64,000 nt of DNA, taken from sequence record NC_041869.1. One strand, 5' to 3'. This document shows positions 1,035 through 46,072 of the stretch, piece by piece. A program made the position numbers and the translations under genes. Position 1 is the first letter of the stretch, and the number at the start of each line of letters is the position of its first letter. The notes below the pieces were generated by a model, which searched no databases, was not told the origin of the DNA, and saw nothing but the letters and a program-made list of their open reading frames with translations. Origin of the DNA: Escherichia phage APECc02.

Positions 1035-1111
1035 CATGAATTGCTAAAGACTGATCTGCGAACTGCTGTATTATCAACTAATCAAAACGAACCACATAAA
1101 GAGGAAACATC

Positions 1112-1375
1112 ATGAAACGTCTGGATCAGCTTAAATTAGTTCAGTACATGGCCTACAGAATTCTTGAAGTCCAGAAAGGTAGCAAAAAAGAGGTTTGCGA
1201 GAAAGCTTATAAGATCTTCACTCGTAAAAAAGATGATTGGATGTTACGCCAGACCAAAAAGGCTGACATCTTGGGGTACCTGGAAGAAGAGATCCGCCTT
1301 GAAGAGCAAGAAGAGATCCGCCGTAGTGAGGCAGATTATCAGGCAGCTTGGGAAAACTGGATGAGCAACAAATAA
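1112..1375 (+). CDS. hypothetical protein (Lys/Glu-rich)
   Basis: ORF with AAGAGGAAA RBS; overlapping alt-frame ORF 1164-1364 rejected. Confidence 0.5.
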   Translation: MKRLDQLKLVQYMAYRILEVQKGSKKEVCEKAYKIFTRKKDDWMLRQTKKADILGYLEEEIRLEEQEEIRRSEADYQAAWENWMSNK

Positions 1376-1394
1376 TACAACAAGGTGCACGGTC

Positions 1395-1419
1395 AGGGGC
1401 TTAAAGCCCCTTTCTTTTT
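1395..1419 (+). terminator. rho-independent terminator (AGGGGC-TTAAA-GCCCCT + TTCTTTTTG)
   Basis: GC hairpin plus T-run immediately after ORF 1112-1375. Confidence 0.65.
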
Positions 1420-2027
1420 GTCTCCTCTTTTCCTACCACAAATGGCCCCGCCTGGCAAATGGAATAATCAACAAGCCAGCAATTAACCCCACTGTACAAA
1501 CATACATATAAAATAACTATTGCATAATTTTTCATTGTGTGGTAGCAGGGCCATTTTTACACGTTTTTCCTTCCAAAATTGCACGTAATGCAGCATTTGC
1601 ACAAAATTTAACCTGATGCATATCTTCAATAGCTTGTCAACAACTAAAAATCTTTATAAGTCATACACTTACATAACTACAAAAGCGTTTTCTACGTGAA
1701 AAATCGAGTATAACTATAGCCGCCAGATCTCAGAATTTACGTACGCTCGCCATTCTATAGCCTGCTAAGCATTTATTCCAACCATAGAATAACGGAATAG
1801 TCAATACCTGCATAAAATAATTATTCGTGTAAACTGCATAACATAAATCGGCCCAGGTGTCAACATTTTTCGTAAACAGTCTGGAATTGTCACGTTAGGT
1901 TACCATAAGCAGAGAAATCTTTAGTCGTCTAATGTTTACTGTACGTTACTATACTAACTGAAATCATTAGATGACTAATAGAAAGATAAGAAATAATTAA
2001 CAATACAATTATTTTATCTGTAACAAT

Positions 2028-2222
2028 AAGGCAACTATGCAAACGAATGGCATGGCGCGACGGAGTCGCGACATAATATAAAAGCAGTAACCATCACCCC
2101 CGTGATAGTTTGTCTGCAAACTATTAATCAGATCATAGTTGCCTTGTATTTAGTTAATCATGACATAACAAGCAAGGCAACTATAGATCTGCTAATAGTT
2201 GCCCTGCTTTTATATTATGTCA
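2028..2222. repeat. nested inverted repeats: 18-bp perfect arms GACATAATATAAAAGCAG (2070-2087) / CTGCTTTTATATTATGTC (2204-2221); GGCAACTAT motif 4x in alternating orientation; 8-bp stem hairpin 2105-2124
   Basis: read directly from sequence. Confidence 0.7.
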
Positions 2223-2317
2223 TAGAAACACCCGAAGGGGTGACCAAAGGTTACCTGGCATAGCCAGTGAAAGATTATTAACTTGCTAATCTTTATCATG
2301 CAAACGAATGGCATGGC
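2037..2317. repeat. 20-bp perfect direct repeat ATGCAAACGAATGGCATGGC at 2037-2056 and 2298-2317
   Basis: exact match seen in sequence. Confidence 0.8.
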
Positions 2318-2336
2318 TTATCATTTCTGTGTAAAT

Positions 2337-2381
2337 AGTCTATGCGTAAACTGTCAAGGCGTAAACAATCTATGCGTGAAC
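2337..2381. repeat. direct repeats TCTATGCGT(A/G)AAC x2 plus GGCGTAAAC
   Basis: seen in sequence. Confidence 0.6.
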
Positions 2382-2409
2382 AGTGAAACATGAAATAATA
2401 ACAGTTGTT

Positions 2410-2505
2410 ATTGTGTCATATTGTGCTGCAGCGTGTTGAGTATGTTTAAGGTGCCCAGTATGTCACCATTATGTCACTATTGTGTCATAGTGTCATAGTA
2501 TGTCA
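2410..2505. repeat. cluster of short (A/G)TGTCA(C/T) direct repeats, 6-8 copies at ~8-11 bp spacing
   Basis: seen in sequence. Confidence 0.6.
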
Positions 2506-2973
2506 GACAAGTTTTTCCCCTCTTTGTCAAGTGCTGCATGAAAAAATTTACAAGCTGGTATGGTAGCATTTTTGCGGCCTTGTTTACATTCAGTAATGTA
2601 TGTATAACCCTTGATGTGTGGGCGTTTAGACGTCTAGACGGTCAGAAGTCTGCAGGTCAATATCTAATCTATTGGCTGCTAACTATATCCCCCACAAATA
2701 ATAAGAAATATAATTGTTATGTGCGTAAACAGTAACTCATGTTATCAATCCCTGTATGGATCGCCAGTGGTGCGCATAATGGGTATTATGTTAAATTGCC
2801 CGTAATGATAACTATTCTCACAATGATAGGTATTCTCATTCACCCCCACAAGATAGGTTGCAAATGTTGTGCCACTGTGTGAACGGCCTAGCCTATTAAT
2901 TTGCCTCACTGCCTTGATATTTGAGAATTGTTATAAGAATGAGAAGTATTCCCATTTCGTCCGCCTGGCAGCA

Positions 2974-3316
2974 CTCCTGTAGGTCCTGCAAGGACTCTAG
3001 CTGAAAGCTAGACCCTTCGGGCCTCCCTGTAGGTCAGGTCAAAATCGTGGTAGAATTGGGCCTGTTCAGATATTTCTGGCTGACTCTTCAGGTCTGTGTG
3101 GGAAAAGCCAACCTCTCCGGCGGGGCAGGGGGTCATGACGGGAAAATTGCAGGTCAATTAAAAAATTTACGTGGTGTATGAAGCGCTCTTCAGGTAAGGC
3201 ATGTATTATGGGATGAAACCCTCTTCAGGCAATGATATTTGTGGGTGTGATATTTGCTGGAAAGCCAGATATGACGGGACTCCCGGCGGGGCAGGGGTAG
3301 TACAGACAGGGAAAAT
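2974..3316. repeat. GC-rich repeat family: CTCTTCAGG x3 (3085, 3186, 3221), CCGGCGGGGCAGGGG x2 (3117, 3282), ATGACGGGA x2, CCTGTAGGTC x2
   Basis: seen in sequence; no ORF with RBS. Confidence 0.6.
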
Positions 3317-3993
3317 ATGAGAATGTAGTTGGGGAAATTGATCAGACAGGTAGAGTATGGAATATGTTACAAGTATGTTAAATATGGAGGTTGAATATCT
3401 GTAGGATTTGTGTGTAAAATCAAAGACTTAAGGGGTGTTGTGGTATTTTCTATAAATAATTCAAGTTTAATAGGCAATATTTGTCTCTATCCGCTTTGTG
3501 TGGTAAACAGATTCAGATTAGATTGGTTTACAAGTGTATACATAATATACAAATTAAAGATACAAGAAACCCCCCTCCCCCCTTCGGCTACCATTCACCT
3601 TTTCCTCTGACTGGTACTTAAACACTTATTCAGACTCTTCAGGTTATCACCCATATATCATATGGCAGTGACTGGTGTCCTCCGGCCCCTCTTTCGTCAC
3701 CCGTCCGCTTCGCCATGCTAATGCCATAGCTAATGGTTCGGTTGTTCACCCTGTTCACTCAGGTGTATCTCTATACCCCTTCAAACCGAAGAGAACAGAA
3801 AACCCGAATTACTCGGTAAAAGAAAAGAGAAGAACTTAATTTTATCAGGATAGGCAAGAATGTCAAGGCATGACTGCTCACTAAACAAGCAAACAGTCAT
3901 GTGTGGGAGGTAAGTGATTGTGGTGGTAGGAAATTTAGTTGAAAGATGTGTTATAGGTGCTTCCAGCACTTTAGCCGGGCAGCTAATTGTGTG

Positions 3994-4209
3994 TCAGTCC
4001 AGCGGTTCATCCTCTACTTCACTGAAATCAATGTTCATGGTCTCTTCCCAACCATCGATCTCAGCACAAGAGTGGAGTTCTTTAGGGTTTACTCCCAAAG
4101 CCTCAGCAACAGAGTCTATATTTAACACCTCTGGCAGGTATGATTCATCGAATTCAAGGTAAATCAGGCCACGAGTGTTGTCAGCTCCACCAAATATCTC
4201 TATCTTCAT
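3994..4209 (-). CDS. small acidic protein (MKIEI... N-terminus)
   Basis: ORF with GAGGAG RBS; first gene of leftward block. Confidence 0.5.
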   Translation of the reverse strand: MKIEIFGGADNTRGLIYLEFDESYLPEVLNIDSVAEALGVNPKELHSCAEIDGWEETMNIDFSEVEDEPLD

Positions 4210-4330
4210 AAAATCTCCTCTGGGAATGAAAGTGTGAACAGGGTTTTATACGTTCTAATGCACAGGAATTATACACGTTTGCCTCTTCAGGCCATGCTTC
4301 AGCATGAGGAACCTGTGTGGGCTCGGTGCT

Positions 4331-4744
4331 TCATAGTCTACCACCCCTGAACTCTTCGTGCTCAGGCATAATAGAGAACCAGATATCTACGATGTCTTCC
4401 CACGTCAGGTCATCAGCCTCAGGATCTACCTGGAGCGAAGATGAAGAATCTTCAGAATCGAAGTTTTCCTCTTGCACTGGCTCAGTCAAGGGACATATAG
4501 TCACTCCTTTGGATGTCTCTTCAGATGCATGTGTGTTTATCATGTTCCACCCGTGAGTATTCCGGCAACAGCCACTATGGACGTAATGATCATCAGGATC
4601 ACCACCAAAACCTCTGACAATGTTTTCATTGTGTATCCCATATTCTCCAAACGATGTGTGGATACTATCACTGGATCGGTAATGTGTCAACAGAAACGCC
4701 GCGAGGGTTTGGTTAAAATCCGAGCGTATGGTGATTTGGGTCAA
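4331..4744 (-). CDS. hypothetical protein
   Basis: longest ORF co-oriented with block; opposite-strand overlaps rejected. Confidence 0.4.
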   Translation of the reverse strand: MTQITIRSDFNQTLAAFLLTHYRSSDSIHTSFGEYGIHNENIVRGFGGDPDDHYVHSGCCRNTHGWNMINTHASEETSKGVTICPLTEPVQEENFDSEDSSSSLQVDPEADDLTWEDIVDIWFSIMPEHEEFRGGRL

Positions 4745-8730: not shown

Positions 8731-8994
8731 TCACCCAACAACCATAGCTTCAAAAGGGGTCATGAACGAATAAACGGCATCATCATCTGCTTCAGGGAAT
8801 GCTCCCAAAGACTTCATGTCTGAGCCCTTGACAAATACAAGGTTTTGATCAAAGGCTTCTTGGGGGTCAATCCGATACATATCTCGTAGGATATCACTTA
8901 CCTCCTCATCAAGAGGTGAGTATGCTGTGCACGTTTTTCCGATCAAGCTTTGAGAATCAGGGTATCCACCTGAAGTTTTAAAATAAACAATCAT
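8731..8994 (-). CDS. family-A small protein (VFVKGSDMKSLGA motif)
   Basis: motif shared with 10613, 10857, 14516 ORFs. Confidence 0.5.
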   Translation of the reverse strand: MIVYFKTSGGYPDSQSLIGKTCTAYSPLDEEVSDILRDMYRIDPQEAFDQNLVFVKGSDMKSLGAFPEADDDAVYSFMTPFEAMVVG

Positions 8995-10612: not shown

Positions 10613-10867
10613 TCACAGCTCTACAATATCTGCATCTGACCCTGCCCCAAAGGCATAATAGGACTCTTCCCCGAAATAATATTCCGGTGCACCAGCAGCG
10701 ATCAGGTCTGATCCCAAGATAAACACCACGTTGTGGCCTACATAACTGTGATGTTGCCGCACAGGATCATCCCACGGCAACCCTTCAAAGTATACCGCAG
10801 GAACGACCTTTCCCTTCAGGAAGGATTGTCCCAAGTAGACGTTAGAATCAAGAATTTTAACCTTCAT
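10613..10867 (-). CDS. family-A small protein (MKVKIL...GSDLIAAGA...DIVEL)
   Basis: paralogous to 10857-11084 and 14516-14749. Confidence 0.55.
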   Translation of the reverse strand: MKVKILDSNVYLGQSFLKGKVVPAVYFEGLPWDDPVRQHHSYVGHNVVFILGSDLIAAGAPEYYFGEESYYAFGAGSDADIVEL

Positions 10868-43020: not shown

Positions 43021-43270
43021 TGTCGGCCCTTCATTGGCACTCGCCTACGAGGGGCGAGATGCCGGGCCTCCCTGGTGCACACAATAACAGAAGTGCATAC
43101 ATGCAGGTCTGTTAACATGTGTGGGAGCGAAGCGATAGCGCAGGCCAAAGGCCGAGCACTGATGTGGACCACCGACGAAAGCTTGCCAGCGCCGTAAGGA
43201 GTCGGTTGAGAGTCTCCCGCGCGAGCTTGGATGAAGTTTATGTGTGGAAACGGACAAGAAGGCCCCTAAA
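43021..43270. other. GC-rich ORF-free island with multiple hairpins (candidate structured RNA or acquired fragment)
   Basis: marked GC shift versus flanks; no plus-strand ORF; several GC stems. Confidence 0.35.
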
Positions 43271-45259: not shown

Positions 45260-45334
45260 GCCCTGTTAGCTTAGTGGATAAAGCAGCGGCCTTCTAAGCC
45301 GTTGACACTGGTTCGAGTCCAGTACGGGGTGCCA
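45260..45334 (+). tRNA. tRNA-Arg (anticodon TCT), CCA encoded
   Basis: cloverleaf folded by hand: 7-bp acceptor, anticodon loop CTTCTAA, GTTCGAGTC T-loop. Confidence 0.75.
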
Positions 45335-45338
45335 AATT

Positions 45339-45425
45339 GGGGAGTTATCCCGTAGAGGTAGCGGTGTAGACTGTAAATCTATTGTCATTGCGACTCGGGT
45401 GGTTCGACTCCACCACTCCCCACCA
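45339..45425 (+). tRNA. tRNA-Tyr (anticodon GTA), long variable arm
   Basis: anticodon arm AGACTGTAAATCT identical to bacterial tRNA-Tyr; acceptor pairs; CCA encoded. Confidence 0.8.
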
Positions 45426-45539
45426 AATTTACATTTTTAAATGCATAAATCATACAGATAATGGCATTGATATTTATCGTCGTTTATACTAGTCACTAAC
45501 TGCTCGAAAATCAGTGTCATTATCAGTATTGTTTATAAA

Positions 45540-45630
45540 TGAGGGTAGGGAGCAATGGTGCTCAAGCGGTCTTGAAAACCGTCCCGTTGAGGATGACTCG
45601 ATGATGGTTCGATTCCATTACCCTCAGCCA
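45540..45630 (+). tRNA. tRNA-Ser (anticodon TGA), long variable arm
   Basis: anticodon loop CTTGAAA, long variable arm, T-loop TTCGATT; 5' boundary uncertain by 1 nt. Confidence 0.65.
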
Positions 45631-45728
45631 TATTGTTGACCTTGTAATTAAGCGAAAGCCGGAAGCAGAACCGGATTATCAAATGTTACAGTCGTCATCG
45701 CCGACTAGCAACATGGTCAACATACTGA

Positions 45729-45825
45729 GCTAGGTAAGCCCTTTGGCAAGGGCGAGGATTTTTAATCCTGAAAATAGACGAGGTAGTCGTTGAATACATA
45801 GGTGGTTCGATTCCATCACCTAGCA
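45729..45825 (+). ncRNA. atypical tRNA-like element (acceptor and T-arm intact; possible TTT anticodon; ~31-nt variable region)
   Basis: GCTAGGT/ACCTAGC acceptor pairing and GGTTCGATTCC T-arm, but non-canonical middle. Confidence 0.3.
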
Positions 45826-45832
45826 CCTTTTT

Positions 45833-45908
45833 GCTGATGTAGCACAATTGGTAGTGCAATTGATTTGTAATCAATAGGTTGCAGGTTCGAGTCCTGCTAT
45901 CAGCACCA
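45833..45908 (+). tRNA. tRNA-Thr (anticodon TGT), CCA encoded
   Basis: acceptor GCTGATG, D-arm GCAC..GTGC, anticodon loop TTTGTAA. Confidence 0.75.
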
Positions 45909-45909
45909 T

Positions 45910-45984
45910 GGCCCTGTAGCTGGAAGGTTCAAGCAAGCGACTCATAATCGCCAGACGGTGGTTCAATTCCACCCAGGGCCACCA
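45910..45984 (+). tRNA. tRNA-Met or Ile2 (anticodon CAT), CCA encoded
   Basis: acceptor GGCCCTG/CAGGGCC, anticodon loop CTCATAA. Confidence 0.75.
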
Positions 45985-45995
45985 AATAATAAATA

Positions 45996-46072
45996 CTCCG
46001 CGTAGCTCAGCTTGGTAGAGCGCCTGATTTGGGATCAGGAGGTCGAGTGTTCGAATCACTCCGTGGAGACCA
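45996..46072 (+). tRNA. tRNA-Pro (anticodon TGG), CCA encoded
   Basis: canonical D-arm TAGCTCAGCTTGGTAGAGC, anticodon loop TTTGGGA. Confidence 0.75.

What the first reader, a model, noticed from the sequence alone, without database searches (positions are those of the whole stretch)
1380..3990. 2.6-kb repeat-dense non-coding region between convergent gene blocks
Contains an 18-bp perfect inverted repeat pair (2070-2087 / 2204-2221) enclosing nested palindromes, a 20-bp perfect direct repeat 261 bp apart, clustered TGTCA-type short repeats and GC-rich repeated motifs (CCGGCGGGGCAGGGG, CTCTTCAGG). There is no convincing ORF with an RBS. Candidate functions: packaging or terminal-repeat boundary, replication origin, recombination hotspot, or non-coding RNA genes.
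Basis: seen in the sequence. Interest (0 to 1): 0.6.

Follow-up and report, generated by a model that had tools for sequence, protein, structure and literature searches.

The report
Phage genome ends and terminal repeat
This gene-free 2.6-kb stretch of an rV5-like coliphage is where the packaged DNA molecule starts and stops: it holds the ~460-bp direct terminal repeat, already reported for close relatives, with conserved repeat-rich non-coding arms of unknown function on either side.

Summary
The window is a Vequintavirus (rV5-like coliphage).

The decisive feature was missed. Window 2506-2965 is 95-97% identical to the 459-bp direct terminal repeat found at both ends of three relatives' GenBank records (Gotham, HdK5, ECP2309). 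Five more records are opened exactly at 2505|2506 or 2965|2966. The region is therefore the concatemer junction: left arm, terminal repeat (DTR), right arm, between two gene blocks that converge on the genome ends.

The flagged repeats lie in the arms, not in the DTR:
- The hairpin cassette (2070-2221) is missing from phage FV3.
- The GTAAAC and TGTCA arrays abut the left cut site and vary in copy number.
- The DTR is conserved, while indel-rich zones flank it.

One sub-element is new. A strong sigma-70 promoter (3866->3839, minus strand) drives about 260 nt that are nearly invariant across relatives only 84-96% identical elsewhere. This unit ends at a G6AG6 tract followed by 29%-GC DNA. It could be an ncRNA, a primer or a packaging signal; the data cannot say which.

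Verdict: a known kind of feature, already reported for this genus, although the literature disagrees on the packaging type. Modest interest.

The parts
1395..1411 (+). Intrinsic terminator that closes the plus-strand gene block (last gene 1112-1375).
   Evidence: 7-bp stem, 5 GC pairs, T-run. It is annotated as a terminator at the homologous place in Murica, Gotham and HdK5.
1412..2036 (.). Left arm, distal part: AT-rich (34% GC) conserved non-coding DNA. It includes a hairpin near 1918-1984.
   Evidence: 82-98% identity in 50-bp bins across 20 relatives, with no intact or codon-biased ORF. GC content. Fold z = -2.9 for 1890-2029 on the plus strand.
2037..2317 (.). Cassette bounded by two perfect 20-bp direct repeats (2037-2056 and 2298-2317). 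Phage FV3 lacks exactly one repeat period (261 bp) and keeps a single repeat copy.
   Evidence: (D6) and the alignment.
2070..2221 (.). About 150-nt snap-back hairpin or cruciform. Its base is the 18-bp perfect inverted repeat. Inside are ATAGTT...AACTAT dyads (2105-2124, 2135-2184, 2179-2200).
   Evidence: I1, I7, I14. The single-stranded DNA fold of 2015-2325 gives -65.6 kcal/mol, z = -8.95. Sliding-window z is -3 to -6 on both strands. These close dyads occur nowhere else in the 64 kb. The block is invariant in 18 of 19 relatives.
2222..2273 (.). Hairpin module that varies by presence or absence among relatives. It is 88% identical to a non-coding stretch of 13.7-kb phage-like E. coli plasmids.
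2331..2387 (.). GTAAAC-type tandem array with a 15-17-bp unit; 3.6 copies here, roughly 1-7 in relatives.
   Evidence: (D1).
2440..2505 (.). TGTCA-type array with 8-11-bp units, ending exactly at the left DTR boundary (...GTATGTCA|GACAAG). Relatives carry 1-6 units and only the last unit is constant.
   Evidence: (D2).
2506..2965 (.). Direct terminal repeat (460 bp), present once here because the assembly is collapsed. In the virion it would sit at both ends. It is non-coding.
   Evidence: 94.8-97.2% identical to the 459 bp that are the same at both ends of Gotham and HdK5; ECP2309 also carries an identical 459 bp at both ends, mapping to 2965 and 2506. Annotated as repeat_region in Gotham. 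Pr121LW is opened at 2505|2506 and four bov records at 2965|2966. Korf 2019 (PMC6563267) and Dias 2020 (PMC7471380) report it. 92-98% conserved, with indel-rich zones on either side.
2804..2954 (.). Four 15-bp dyad boxes (TGAkAAn-N-ATTCTCA) arranged as two pairs with 18-bp spacing: 2806, 2824, 2922 and 2940. Presumed protein-binding sites inside the DTR.
   Evidence: (D3). The 25-mer 2915-2939 is 24/25 identical to a non-coding stretch of plasmid pE275a_13.
2966..3050 (.). Right flank of the DTR. Twelve conserved bases (TGGCAGCACTCC) are followed by an indel-rich zone. HdK5, rV5, Murica, FV3 and slur16 have a deletion between two CTCCTGTAGGTC repeats.
3078..3320 (+). Two G-rich modules (3078-3150 and 3217-3320), each carrying CTCTTCAGG, TGTGGG, GAAAGCCA, CCGGCGGGGCAGGGG and GAC(A)GGGAAAAT. 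A further CTCTTCAGG lies at 3186. The second module is conserved; the first is variable.
   Evidence: (D5, D9, D11, D12). GC skew +0.28.
3400..3569 (.). AT-rich segment (29% GC). Its right-hand part (about 3490-3569) is poorly conserved in sequence and cannot be aligned in the most distant relatives; 3400-3489 is well conserved.
3570..3832 (-). Ultra-conserved non-coding unit. It is the predicted transcript from the promoter at 3866->3839 and ends at G6AG6 (3582->3570) followed by U-rich sequence.
   Evidence: Only 11 variable columns in 247 nt among 22 distinct sequences, including an 84%-identical metagenome relative. No ORF signal. No Rfam match. No compensatory changes available to test a structure.
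3839..3866 (-). Strong sigma-70-type promoter (TTGACA-16-TG-TAAAAT) reading towards the DTR, with no ORF downstream.
   Evidence: 11/12 matches, extended -10. It is one of 14 sites scoring at least 11/12 in 64 kb. The spacer and flanking bases are altered only in IMGVR1; CM1 has one -35 substitution.
3869..3901 (-). Hairpin (CATGACTG...CAGTCATG) between the last minus-strand gene (stop at 3994) and the promoter.
   Evidence: Read directly from the sequence. The minus-strand window 3850-3989 folds with z = -3.7.

Best explanation
The region is the genome-end (concatemer-junction) region of a Vequintavirus. Window 2506-2965 is the roughly 460-bp direct terminal repeat (DTR). In replicating concatemers and in collapsed assemblies it occurs once; in the virion it sits at both ends. 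The mature molecule, read in window orientation, would start at 2506, run rightwards around the whole genome, and end at 2965. The two gene blocks are therefore transcribed towards the two physical ends. Each end carries about 1 kb of non-coding 'arm' between the last gene and the DTR.

Inferred mechanism, by analogy with T7-type packaging. Terminase cuts at fixed sites at or near 2505|2506 and 2965|2966, and the DTR is duplicated by DNA synthesis during packaging. The short-repeat arrays that abut the cut sites, the dyad boxes inside the DTR and the same-strand CTCTTCAGG copies are the likely binding sites for the terminase or its accessory proteins. The strong promoter at 3866 transcribes towards the junction, as phiOR does in T7.

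Shown versus inferred. The position and boundaries of the DTR are shown by homology. The absence of coding capacity, the conservation pattern and the dispensability of the hairpin cassette are also shown. The cutting and duplication chemistry and the role of each arm element are inferred.
For: (1) Three GenBank records from three laboratories carry an identical 459 bp at both ends: Gotham, HdK5 and ECP2309. These map to window 2506-2965; Gotham and HdK5 match at 94.8-97.2%.
(2) Pr121LW is linearised exactly at 2505|2506, and four bov records exactly at 2965|2966.
(3) Published statements agree. [quoted passage not shown] (4) The conservation profile changes sharply close to the reported boundaries. 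The DTR is 92-98% identical. Identity falls to 35-65% in 2200-2500 and 57-72% in 2950-3050, with many indels.
(5) A second genus of the subfamily shows the same layout. KPP-1 (Mydovirus) has a 514-bp DTR supported by doubled read coverage and a PhageTerm 'T7 type' call. It sits in a 1.8-kb gene-poor gap between convergent gene blocks. A 21-bp perfect inverted repeat lies about 310 bp outside that DTR, and an ATAGTT-N9-AACTAT dyad lies 96 bp outside it (PMC9862379).
(6) The T7 right end shows the analogous parts. Short-repeat arrays lie just left of the terminal repeat, and phiOR lies 550 bp upstream pointing at it.
(7) The region is truly non-coding.
Against: The window holds only one copy of the repeat and no read data, so the ends of this particular phage are inferred by homology. 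The literature disagrees. rV5 was described as circularly permuted (PMC3606486). PhageTerm called four bov vequintaviruses 'circular permutated' (PMC8407724). It called BpE1AUH headful with partial permutation (PMC13211470). Boundary sequences of KPP-1 and the window are not significantly similar (best shuffle p = 0.02, the other 0.26), so the cross-genus support is architectural only. No terminase-binding site has been defined for this subfamily. FV3 lacks the hairpin cassette, and Gotham and HdK5 keep a single TGTCA unit, so those elements cannot be essential parts of the mechanism.
Confidence: 0.8

Rival explanations
1. The region holds a pac site for headful packaging. Virion DNA would be terminally redundant and circularly permuted, and the 459-bp 'repeat' in some records would be an assembly or curation artefact.
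For: rV5 was called circularly permuted. PhageTerm gave 'circular permutated' for four bov phages and 'headful (PAC)' for BpE1AUH. The CM1 assembly carries an odd tandem duplication of 64 bp of flank plus the DTR, which shows that assemblers mishandle this locus.
Against: Three laboratories independently deposited ends with the same 459-bp repeat and the same two boundaries. Dias et al. report the same start sequence for packaging in all virions and no sign of permutation. KPP-1 shows doubled coverage confined to 514 bp. An assembler's k-mer overlap is 55-127 bp, not 459 bp. The conservation profile changes sharply close to the two boundaries. PhageTerm reports permutation by default when library preparation erases the ends.
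Confidence: 0.08
2. The arms contain the phage replication origin, possibly alongside the termini. One candidate is iteron-like arrays plus AT-rich DNA in the left arm. The other, in the right arm, is a transcription-primed origin: promoter 3866, a G-rich transcript, a G6AG6 tract, then a 29%-GC unwinding element.
For: The GTAAAC and TGTCA arrays are iteron-like. AT-rich blocks lie at 1412-2036 (34% GC) and 3400-3569 (29% GC). The strong promoter is followed by 262 nt with G>C on the RNA strand (skew -0.31 on the plus strand), ending in G6AG6 directly before the AT-rich block. Kropinski et al. saw a skew change here.
Against: The skew change coincides with the switch in transcription direction, as the authors themselves note. 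No DnaA box with one mismatch or fewer lies in the region, and only one IHF core is present. Array copy number drops to one unit in viable relatives, and the hairpin cassette is absent from FV3. No initiator gene lies next to the region. Nothing here tests replication.
Confidence: 0.2
3. The functionally important content is one or more non-coding RNA genes, above all the roughly 260-nt unit 3832->3570 on the minus strand.
For: The promoter is of the phage's own early class and has no ORF downstream. Near-invariance starts at the promoter and stops at the G-tract and U-rich end. Only 11 of 247 columns vary across genomes that differ by 4-16% elsewhere. In the same comparison the neighbouring gene has accumulated many third-position changes. 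Most variable sites fall in hairpin loops or unpaired positions.
Against: Folding is no better than for shuffled sequence (z = -1.4; sliding windows are unremarkable). No pair shows a compensatory change, so the structure is untestable. There is no Rfam match even at E = 10. No homologue appears in KPP-1 or anywhere else searched. No canonical terminator is present. No transcript data exist.
Confidence: 0.35
4. The arms are decayed genes or neutral spacer with no function.
For: No ORFs are present. Short upstream-type motifs (CCACACA) are scattered in the right arm. Many indels occur near the DTR.
Against: Most of both arms is conserved as well as, or better than, the flanking genes. That includes a 300-bp block at 97-100% identity. 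The repeats are far beyond chance. The same architecture recurs in another genus.
Confidence: 0.04

Closest known systems
Direct terminal repeats of Vequintavirus phages Gotham, HdK5/EdH4 and ECP2309 (GenBank MT682716, MK373780, PP464953)
   Same: The sequence is homologous: Gotham and HdK5 are 95-97% identical over the 460 bp, and ECP2309 maps to the same interval. The two boundaries are the same, and so is the position between the same gene blocks.
   Different: Those records and papers give only the repeat length. None describes the arms, the hairpin cassette, the arrays or the conserved promoter unit. This window shows the collapsed single-copy form and lacks the ORF164 gene that some relatives carry at the left edge.
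Bacteriophage T7 concatemer junction (160-bp terminal repeat, SRL/SRR short-repeat arrays, phiOR promoter)
   Same: A short non-coding DTR with fixed ends. Arrays of short repeats abut the repeat. A promoter a few hundred bp away reads towards the junction, and the DTR is duplicated during packaging (PMC4281155; my own knowledge of T7 biology).
   Different: The repeat is three times longer. The arms are about 1 kb each instead of 0.2-0.5 kb. Genes on both sides point towards the ends, whereas T7 early genes point inwards from the left end. The promoter is of the host sigma-70 type, not a phage RNA polymerase promoter. There is no sequence or protein homology. A 150-nt perfect-stem hairpin has no clear counterpart in the T7 right end.
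Klebsiella phage KPP-1 (Mydovirus, Vequintavirinae) terminus
   Same: A 514-bp DTR in a gene-poor gap between convergent gene blocks. A long perfect inverted repeat lies about 300 bp outside the DTR. An ATAGTT...AACTAT dyad and AATGAGAAT boxes lie near or inside the DTR.
   Different: There is no alignable sequence beyond 10-17-nt motifs. Boundary similarity is not significant. The flanking genes are unrelated. The ultra-conserved unit is absent.
Transcription-primed origins (ColE1 RNA II, T4 oriF/oriG, mitochondrial LSP-CSBII)
   Same: A promoter, then a G-rich transcript ending in a G-run (G6AG6, close to the G6AG8 of human CSBII), then an AT-rich stretch. The comparison rests on my own knowledge and is a lead only.
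   Different: There is no evidence of R-loop formation, primer processing or replication start here. No homology. The host RNA polymerase is not known to stop at such tracts.

Membership tests
Short direct terminal repeat (fixed-end, T7-type) phage genome terminus | The same sequence is present at both ends of the virion DNA. | tested here: met
   Met for close relatives. Gotham, HdK5 and ECP2309 each carry an identical 459 bp at both record ends, homologous to window 2506-2965. It cannot be seen in this window, which holds one collapsed copy.
Short direct terminal repeat (fixed-end, T7-type) phage genome terminus | Ends are unique and not permuted, shown by read-start pile-ups and doubled coverage over the repeat. 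| not testable with these tools
   No reads are available. The literature is split: fixed ends; 'permuted'.
Short direct terminal repeat (fixed-end, T7-type) phage genome terminus | The repeat boundaries are at conserved positions across relatives. | tested here: met
   Eight records from at least five laboratories start or end at 2505|2506 or 2965|2966. The conservation profile changes sharply close to those positions.
Short direct terminal repeat (fixed-end, T7-type) phage genome terminus | The terminal region is non-coding, with short repeat arrays next to the repeat. | tested here: met
.
Headful pac site | Ends are permuted, terminal redundancy varies in position, and no fixed second end exists. 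| tested here: not met
   Three records share both fixed boundaries. A direct test on this phage needs reads.
Replication origin (iteron/DnaA type) | DnaA boxes or iterons next to an AT-rich unwinding element and an initiator gene. | tested here: inconclusive
   Iteron-like arrays and AT-rich blocks are present. No DnaA box is present and no initiator gene is adjacent. Copy number falls to one unit in relatives.
Structured non-coding RNA gene | Promoter, defined 3' end, conservation, base-pair covariation or membership of a curated family. | tested here: inconclusive
   The promoter and extreme conservation are met for 3570-3866. There is no Rfam family. No pair shows a compensatory change. 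The fold z-score is -1.4.
Fur-regulated operator (7-1-7 box TGATAATnATTATCA) | A close match to the consensus upstream of a regulated promoter. | tested here: inconclusive
   Three of the four DTR dyad boxes (2806, 2824, 2922) match the Fur consensus with 2-3 mismatches, and all four match the phage's own dyad (TGAGAATnATTCTCA) with 2-3 mismatches. The cluster is local but the matches are weak. No promoter is associated. I do not file them as Fur boxes.

The most novel reading that the evidence does not exclude
The sharply bounded, nearly invariant unit at 3570-3866 would be a new genus-specific element that works at the genome end. It comprises an early-type sigma-70 promoter, about 260 nt of ORF-less G-rich transcript, a G6AG6 tract and then 29%-GC DNA, and it lies 600-900 bp from the terminal repeat and reads towards it. 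It could be a non-coding RNA made in large amounts early in infection. It could also be a transcript that primes replication through an R-loop, or one that marks the concatemer junction for the terminase, as phiOR-driven transcription is thought to do in T7. A related lead concerns 13.7-kb phage-like E. coli plasmids, which share short non-coding blocks with the DTR and the left arm. These include a 25-mer followed 22-23 nt later by GCC|TGGCA, the motif at the right boundary. They might be satellites that copy the helper phage's end signals.
Probability: 0.3. Interest if true: 0.6.

Novelty: already known. Interest (0 to 1): 0.3.

Why it matters
Knowing where the physical ends lie matters for correct genome records. 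Most of the roughly 120 deposited vequintavirus genomes are opened arbitrarily and leave this stretch blank. Several papers call the genus 'circularly permuted' or 'headful', while others report fixed 459-bp repeats. The alignment here supports the fixed-end view and gives exact coordinates that can be checked with reads already public.

It also matters for engineering these therapeutic-candidate phages. In vitro packaging, genome rebooting and safe insertion sites all depend on leaving the junction intact.

Finally, it points experimenters to about 2 kb of conserved non-coding DNA whose parts can be deleted one at a time. The hairpin cassette looks dispensable and the 300-bp promoter unit looks indispensable.

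Tried and rejected
- **Rfam.** The whole window at gathering threshold returned only the tRNA cluster. The region at E up to 10 returned only chance microRNA-like hairpin hits.
- **ORFs in the region.** PHROGs and Pfam gave nothing for ten ORFs.
- **More divergent copies.** IMG/VR by flanking protein gave 2 loci and by an 18-mer gave 2 loci. The single metagenome scan gave 10 loci, of which only one (L035, 84% identity) was informative.
- **Flanking gene.** tblastn of the flanking 71-aa protein found it only in Vequintavirus, so it could not be used to find the locus in other genera.
- **KPP-1 versus the window.** tblastx found no shared flanking proteins. The boundary-sequence similarity I thought I saw by eye was not significant on shuffling, so I dropped the claim of a conserved cut-site sequence.
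- **Ultra-conserved block.** An nhmmer profile found no second copy in the window and no copy in KPP-1, the plasmid or T7.
- **T7 hairpin.** I recalled a T7 'hairpin near the right end'. The T7 right end shows only weak 10-15-nt inverted repeats. The hairpin-priming analogy for the cassette therefore stays a lead, weakened further by the FV3 deletion.
- **Fur boxes.** The matches are too weak to claim.
- **Host sequences.** A search of E. coli genomes and plasmids found no host-derived sequence apart from the 52-nt module.
Full report
**What the window is.** The 2.6-kb region matches 120 phage records at 86-96% identity. Nearly all are Escherichia phages of the genus Vequintavirus (rV5-like myoviruses), and some are mislabelled 'Campylobacter phage'. 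In rV5 itself it lies at 104017-106601, between ORF163 and ORF164. It is unannotated there and in most other records. The rV5 genome paper drew it as a grey box 'non-coding ... contained no ORFs'. That paper noted a GC/AT-skew change there and attributed it to the switch in transcription direction. It expected, but did not find, bidirectional terminators, and it called the genome circularly permuted (PMC3606486).

**Observation check.**
- The longest perfect direct and inverted repeats are 20 and 18 nt. In 200 shuffles of the region the maxima were 14 and 13.
- Seven TGTCA copies in 131 bp and five same-strand CTCTTCAGG copies in 1.2 kb have Poisson probabilities of about 1e-8 and 5e-13.
- The region is non-coding. 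The two flanking genes show the expected excess of third-position changes in a 20-genome alignment ([6,2,30] and [4,5,17] variable columns by codon position). Every ORF of 39 aa or more inside the region is flat, and most are interrupted in relatives. None matches PHROGs or Pfam.
- The gene blocks converge. Plus-strand genes end at 1375, followed by a terminator at 1395-1411. Minus-strand genes end at 3994.

**The key result: the physical ends.** In the distant-mode BLAST table, several records break inside the region at the same two points.
- Gotham (MT682716) annotates a 459-bp repeat_region at both ends. [quoted passage not shown]
- HdK5 carries the same 459 bp at both ends. Its paper reports 'short terminal redundancies of 458 bp' for EdH4 and HdK5 (PMC6563267).
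- ECP2309 also has 459 identical bases at both ends.
- All three map to window 2506-2965; Gotham and HdK5 match at 94.8-97.2% identity. The boundaries read ...GTATGTCA|GACAAGTTTTT and ...CATTTCGTCCGCC|TGGCAGCAC.
- Pr121LW is linearised exactly at 2505|2506, and four bov records exactly at 2965|2966.
- The window contains the repeat once, as expected for a collapsed assembly or a concatemer junction.

**Anatomy and conservation.** I aligned window 1100-4250 with 19 relatives.
- Most of the non-coding DNA is as conserved as the flanking genes, at 82-98% identity.
- The DTR is 92-98% identical.
- Two indel-rich zones sit just outside the DTR: 2200-2500 (35-65% identity) and 2950-3050 (57-72%). 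A further variable patch lies at 3100-3150.
- At the left boundary, variable numbers of GTAAAC units (15-17 bp, roughly 1-7 copies) and TGTCA units (1-6 copies) run up to the cut site. Only the last TGTCA unit is constant.
- At the right boundary, 12 bases are conserved. Then five phages have a deletion between two CTCCTGTAGGTC repeats.
- FV3 lacks exactly one period (261 bp) of the 20-bp direct repeat and so has lost the whole hairpin cassette. The cassette is therefore dispensable in at least one deposited phage. One caveat applies: palindromes can be lost during cloning or assembly.
- As single-stranded DNA, 2015-2325 folds to -65.6 kcal/mol (z = -8.95). In a sliding-window scan it is the segment with by far the strongest folding signal, and it is significant on both strands.
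- Inside the DTR lie four 15-bp dyad boxes in two pairs with 18-bp spacing.

**The right arm and the ultra-conserved unit.** The right arm carries two G-rich modules. Four of the five clustered same-strand CTCTTCAGG copies lie in it, and the fifth is at 4283.
- Its most striking part is 3570-3866. A promoter, TTGACA-16-TG-TAAAAT, lies on the minus strand. It is one of 14 sites scoring at least 11/12 in the 64 kb and belongs to the same class as the phage's other early promoters. No ORF follows it.
- From the promoter to a G6AG6 tract (C6TC6 on the plus strand, 3570-3582) the sequence is nearly invariant.
- BLAST of 3540-3990 gives 95-100% identity in 116 of 117 matching records.
- Among 22 distinct sequences only 11 of 247 transcribed columns vary. 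The set includes a metagenome relative that is 84% identical overall. In that relative the neighbouring gene is full of changes and the AT-rich DNA beyond the tract cannot be aligned.
- The variable sites are mostly in loops of small hairpins or unpaired positions.
- Against a structured RNA: the sequence folds no better than shuffles (z = -1.4), no compensatory change exists to test a structure, there is no Rfam match, and no homologue appears outside the genus.
- Downstream of the tract lie 170 bp of 29%-GC DNA.
- I can say the unit is under very strong constraint and looks like a transcription unit. I cannot say what it does.

**A second genus.** KPP-1 (Mydovirus, same subfamily) has a 514-bp DTR, supported by doubled read coverage and a PhageTerm 'T7 type' call (PMC9862379).
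- The DTR also sits in a gene-poor gap of about 1.8 kb between convergent gene blocks.
- A 21-bp perfect inverted repeat enclosing 164 nt lies about 310 bp outside the DTR. An ATAGTT-N9-AACTAT dyad lies 96 bp outside it, and AATGAGAAT boxes lie inside it.
- Sequence similarity to the window is limited to short, roughly collinear minus-strand motifs.
- Boundary similarity is not significant, and the flanking genes are unrelated.
- The architecture is therefore shared across the subfamily, but the sequence is not.

**How it most likely works.**
- Shown: the DTR and its boundaries (by homology), the lack of genes, the conservation pattern, and the arrays abutting the cut site.
- Inferred: as in T7, replication yields concatemers joined through one DTR copy. 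Terminase cuts at fixed sites at the two boundaries, and the DTR is duplicated by DNA synthesis so that each virion gets two copies.
- The arrays, dyad boxes and CTCTTCAGG copies are the obvious candidates for binding terminase or accessory proteins.
- In the orientation used for Gotham, the right end reads genes, then the promoter, then about 870 bp of non-coding DNA, then the DTR. This mirrors T7's gene 19, phiOR, 550 bp, terminal repeat. The T7 right end also has short-repeat arrays just left of the repeat.
- Papers in the library confirm only that terminal-repeat duplication is required and that a hairpin intermediate was seen in T7 (PMC4281155). The detailed T7 model comes from my own knowledge.
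- The indel-rich zones flanking the DTR fit slippage and short-repeat recombination at or near the processing sites.

**Rival explanations.**
- Headful packaging is claimed in three papers. It is contradicted by three records with identical fixed ends, by Dias et al., and by the conservation steps. PhageTerm falls back on 'permuted' when the library erases ends.
- A replication origin cannot be excluded and could coexist with the termini. There are no DnaA boxes, the arrays and the cassette are dispensable or variable, and the skew change is explained by transcription direction.
- An ncRNA is plausible only for the 3570-3832 unit.
- Junk DNA is contradicted by the conservation.

**Comparison, membership and novelty.** The region qualifies as a short-DTR terminus on every feature that could be tested here. 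Read-level proof for this phage cannot be obtained with these tools. The DTR of this genus is already published and annotated in GenBank, so the main finding is already known. What has not been described is the content of the arms: the dispensable hairpin cassette, the variable arrays at the cut site, the dyad boxes, and above all the ultra-conserved promoter-driven unit. I rate overall interest at 0.3. It would rise to about 0.6 if that unit proves to be a functional RNA or primer acting at the genome end.

**Seen in passing.** A 52-nt hairpin module in the left arm (2222-2273) varies by presence or absence among relatives. A 25-mer inside the DTR is followed at conserved spacing by GCC|TGGCA, the motif at the right boundary. 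Both recur in non-coding gaps of 13.7-kb circular E. coli 'plasmids'. These plasmids encode capsid, tape-measure and baseplate proteins 35-52% identical to this phage's. They may be satellite-like elements that share end signals with vequintaviruses. I did not pursue this further.

Noticed in passing
window 2222-2273 and 2915-2969; locus L025 (NZ_CP035869, pE275a_13) 10646-10697 and 8895-8950: Three circular E. coli 'plasmids' of about 13.7 kb encode a major capsid protein, a tape measure protein, a baseplate protein and HTH proteins. tblastx gives 35-52% amino-acid identity to window 55.9-63.3 kb. Their two large unannotated gaps share short blocks with the phage end region: a 52-nt hairpin module (88%), and a 25-mer from inside the DTR (24/25) followed 22-23 nt later by GCCTGGCA, the motif at the right DTR boundary. 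They may be satellites or mini phage-plasmids that share end signals with vequintaviruses.
   Followed up: partly
window 2806-2820, 2824-2838, 2922-2936, 2940-2954; L022 (KPP-1) 4440-4660: Dyad boxes inside the DTR resemble the 7-1-7 Fur box (TGATAATnATTATCA) with 2-3 mismatches. The KPP-1 arm carries closer matches (TGATAAGGATTATCA, TGATAAAAGTTATCA). The matches are too weak to call these host Fur sites, but they are clearly clustered protein-binding-type palindromes.
   Followed up: partly
window-wide; e.g. 452, 795, about 1092 (plus-strand genes) and 2615, 3095, 3497, 3900, 4314, 4655: The heptamer CCACACA (TGTGTGG on the other strand) occurs 15 and 16 times in 64 kb against about 4 expected per strand. 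It sits 20-25 nt upstream of the start codons of several small genes. Seven of the 16 TGTGTGG copies lie in 1536-4655. Its role is unknown; it could be a 5'-UTR, processing or promoter-associated motif.
   Followed up: no
window 45729-45827: Within the seven-tRNA cluster (45260-46072), ARAGORN reports a 99-nt 'tRNA-???' with a four-base anticodon (atcc). Rfam scores it only 35.5 bits. It may be an intron-containing or otherwise unusual tRNA-like gene.
   Followed up: no
after window 1400 (insertion in rV5, navn, ev147, A6-1): The alignment shows a 568-bp insertion at the left edge of the non-coding region in these four relatives. In rV5 it carries a 139-aa gene (ORF164; 'contains Rel homology domain' in the Murica annotation). 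This window and several other relatives (JeffSchatz, slur16, FV3, PMBT16) lack it.
   Followed up: partly
L010 (Shigella phage CM1, MK962749) 1050-2031: The CM1 record carries a perfect tandem duplication of 64 bp of left flank plus the whole DTR. This is most likely an assembly artefact of the terminal repeat and shows how this locus gets misassembled.
   Followed up: partly
literature on the genus: Published packaging calls for Vequintavirus conflict. Searches report 'circularly permuted' or 'headful'. Searches report fixed 458-459-bp terminal repeats. Most GenBank records are opened arbitrarily and leave this region blank. PLSDB entry CP057073 is a whole vequintavirus genome deposited as a plasmid.
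   Followed up: partly
window 1380-3990 versus the whole window: GATC is depleted in the region: 5 sites in 2.6 kb (1.9 per kb) against 5.2 per kb across the 64 kb.
   Followed up: no
window 43162-43222: Another 61-nt stretch is 85% identical to the non-coding gap of plasmid pE275a_13 (7704-7764). It lies in a short-ORF area rich in CCACACA motifs, upstream of the tRNA cluster.
   Followed up: no
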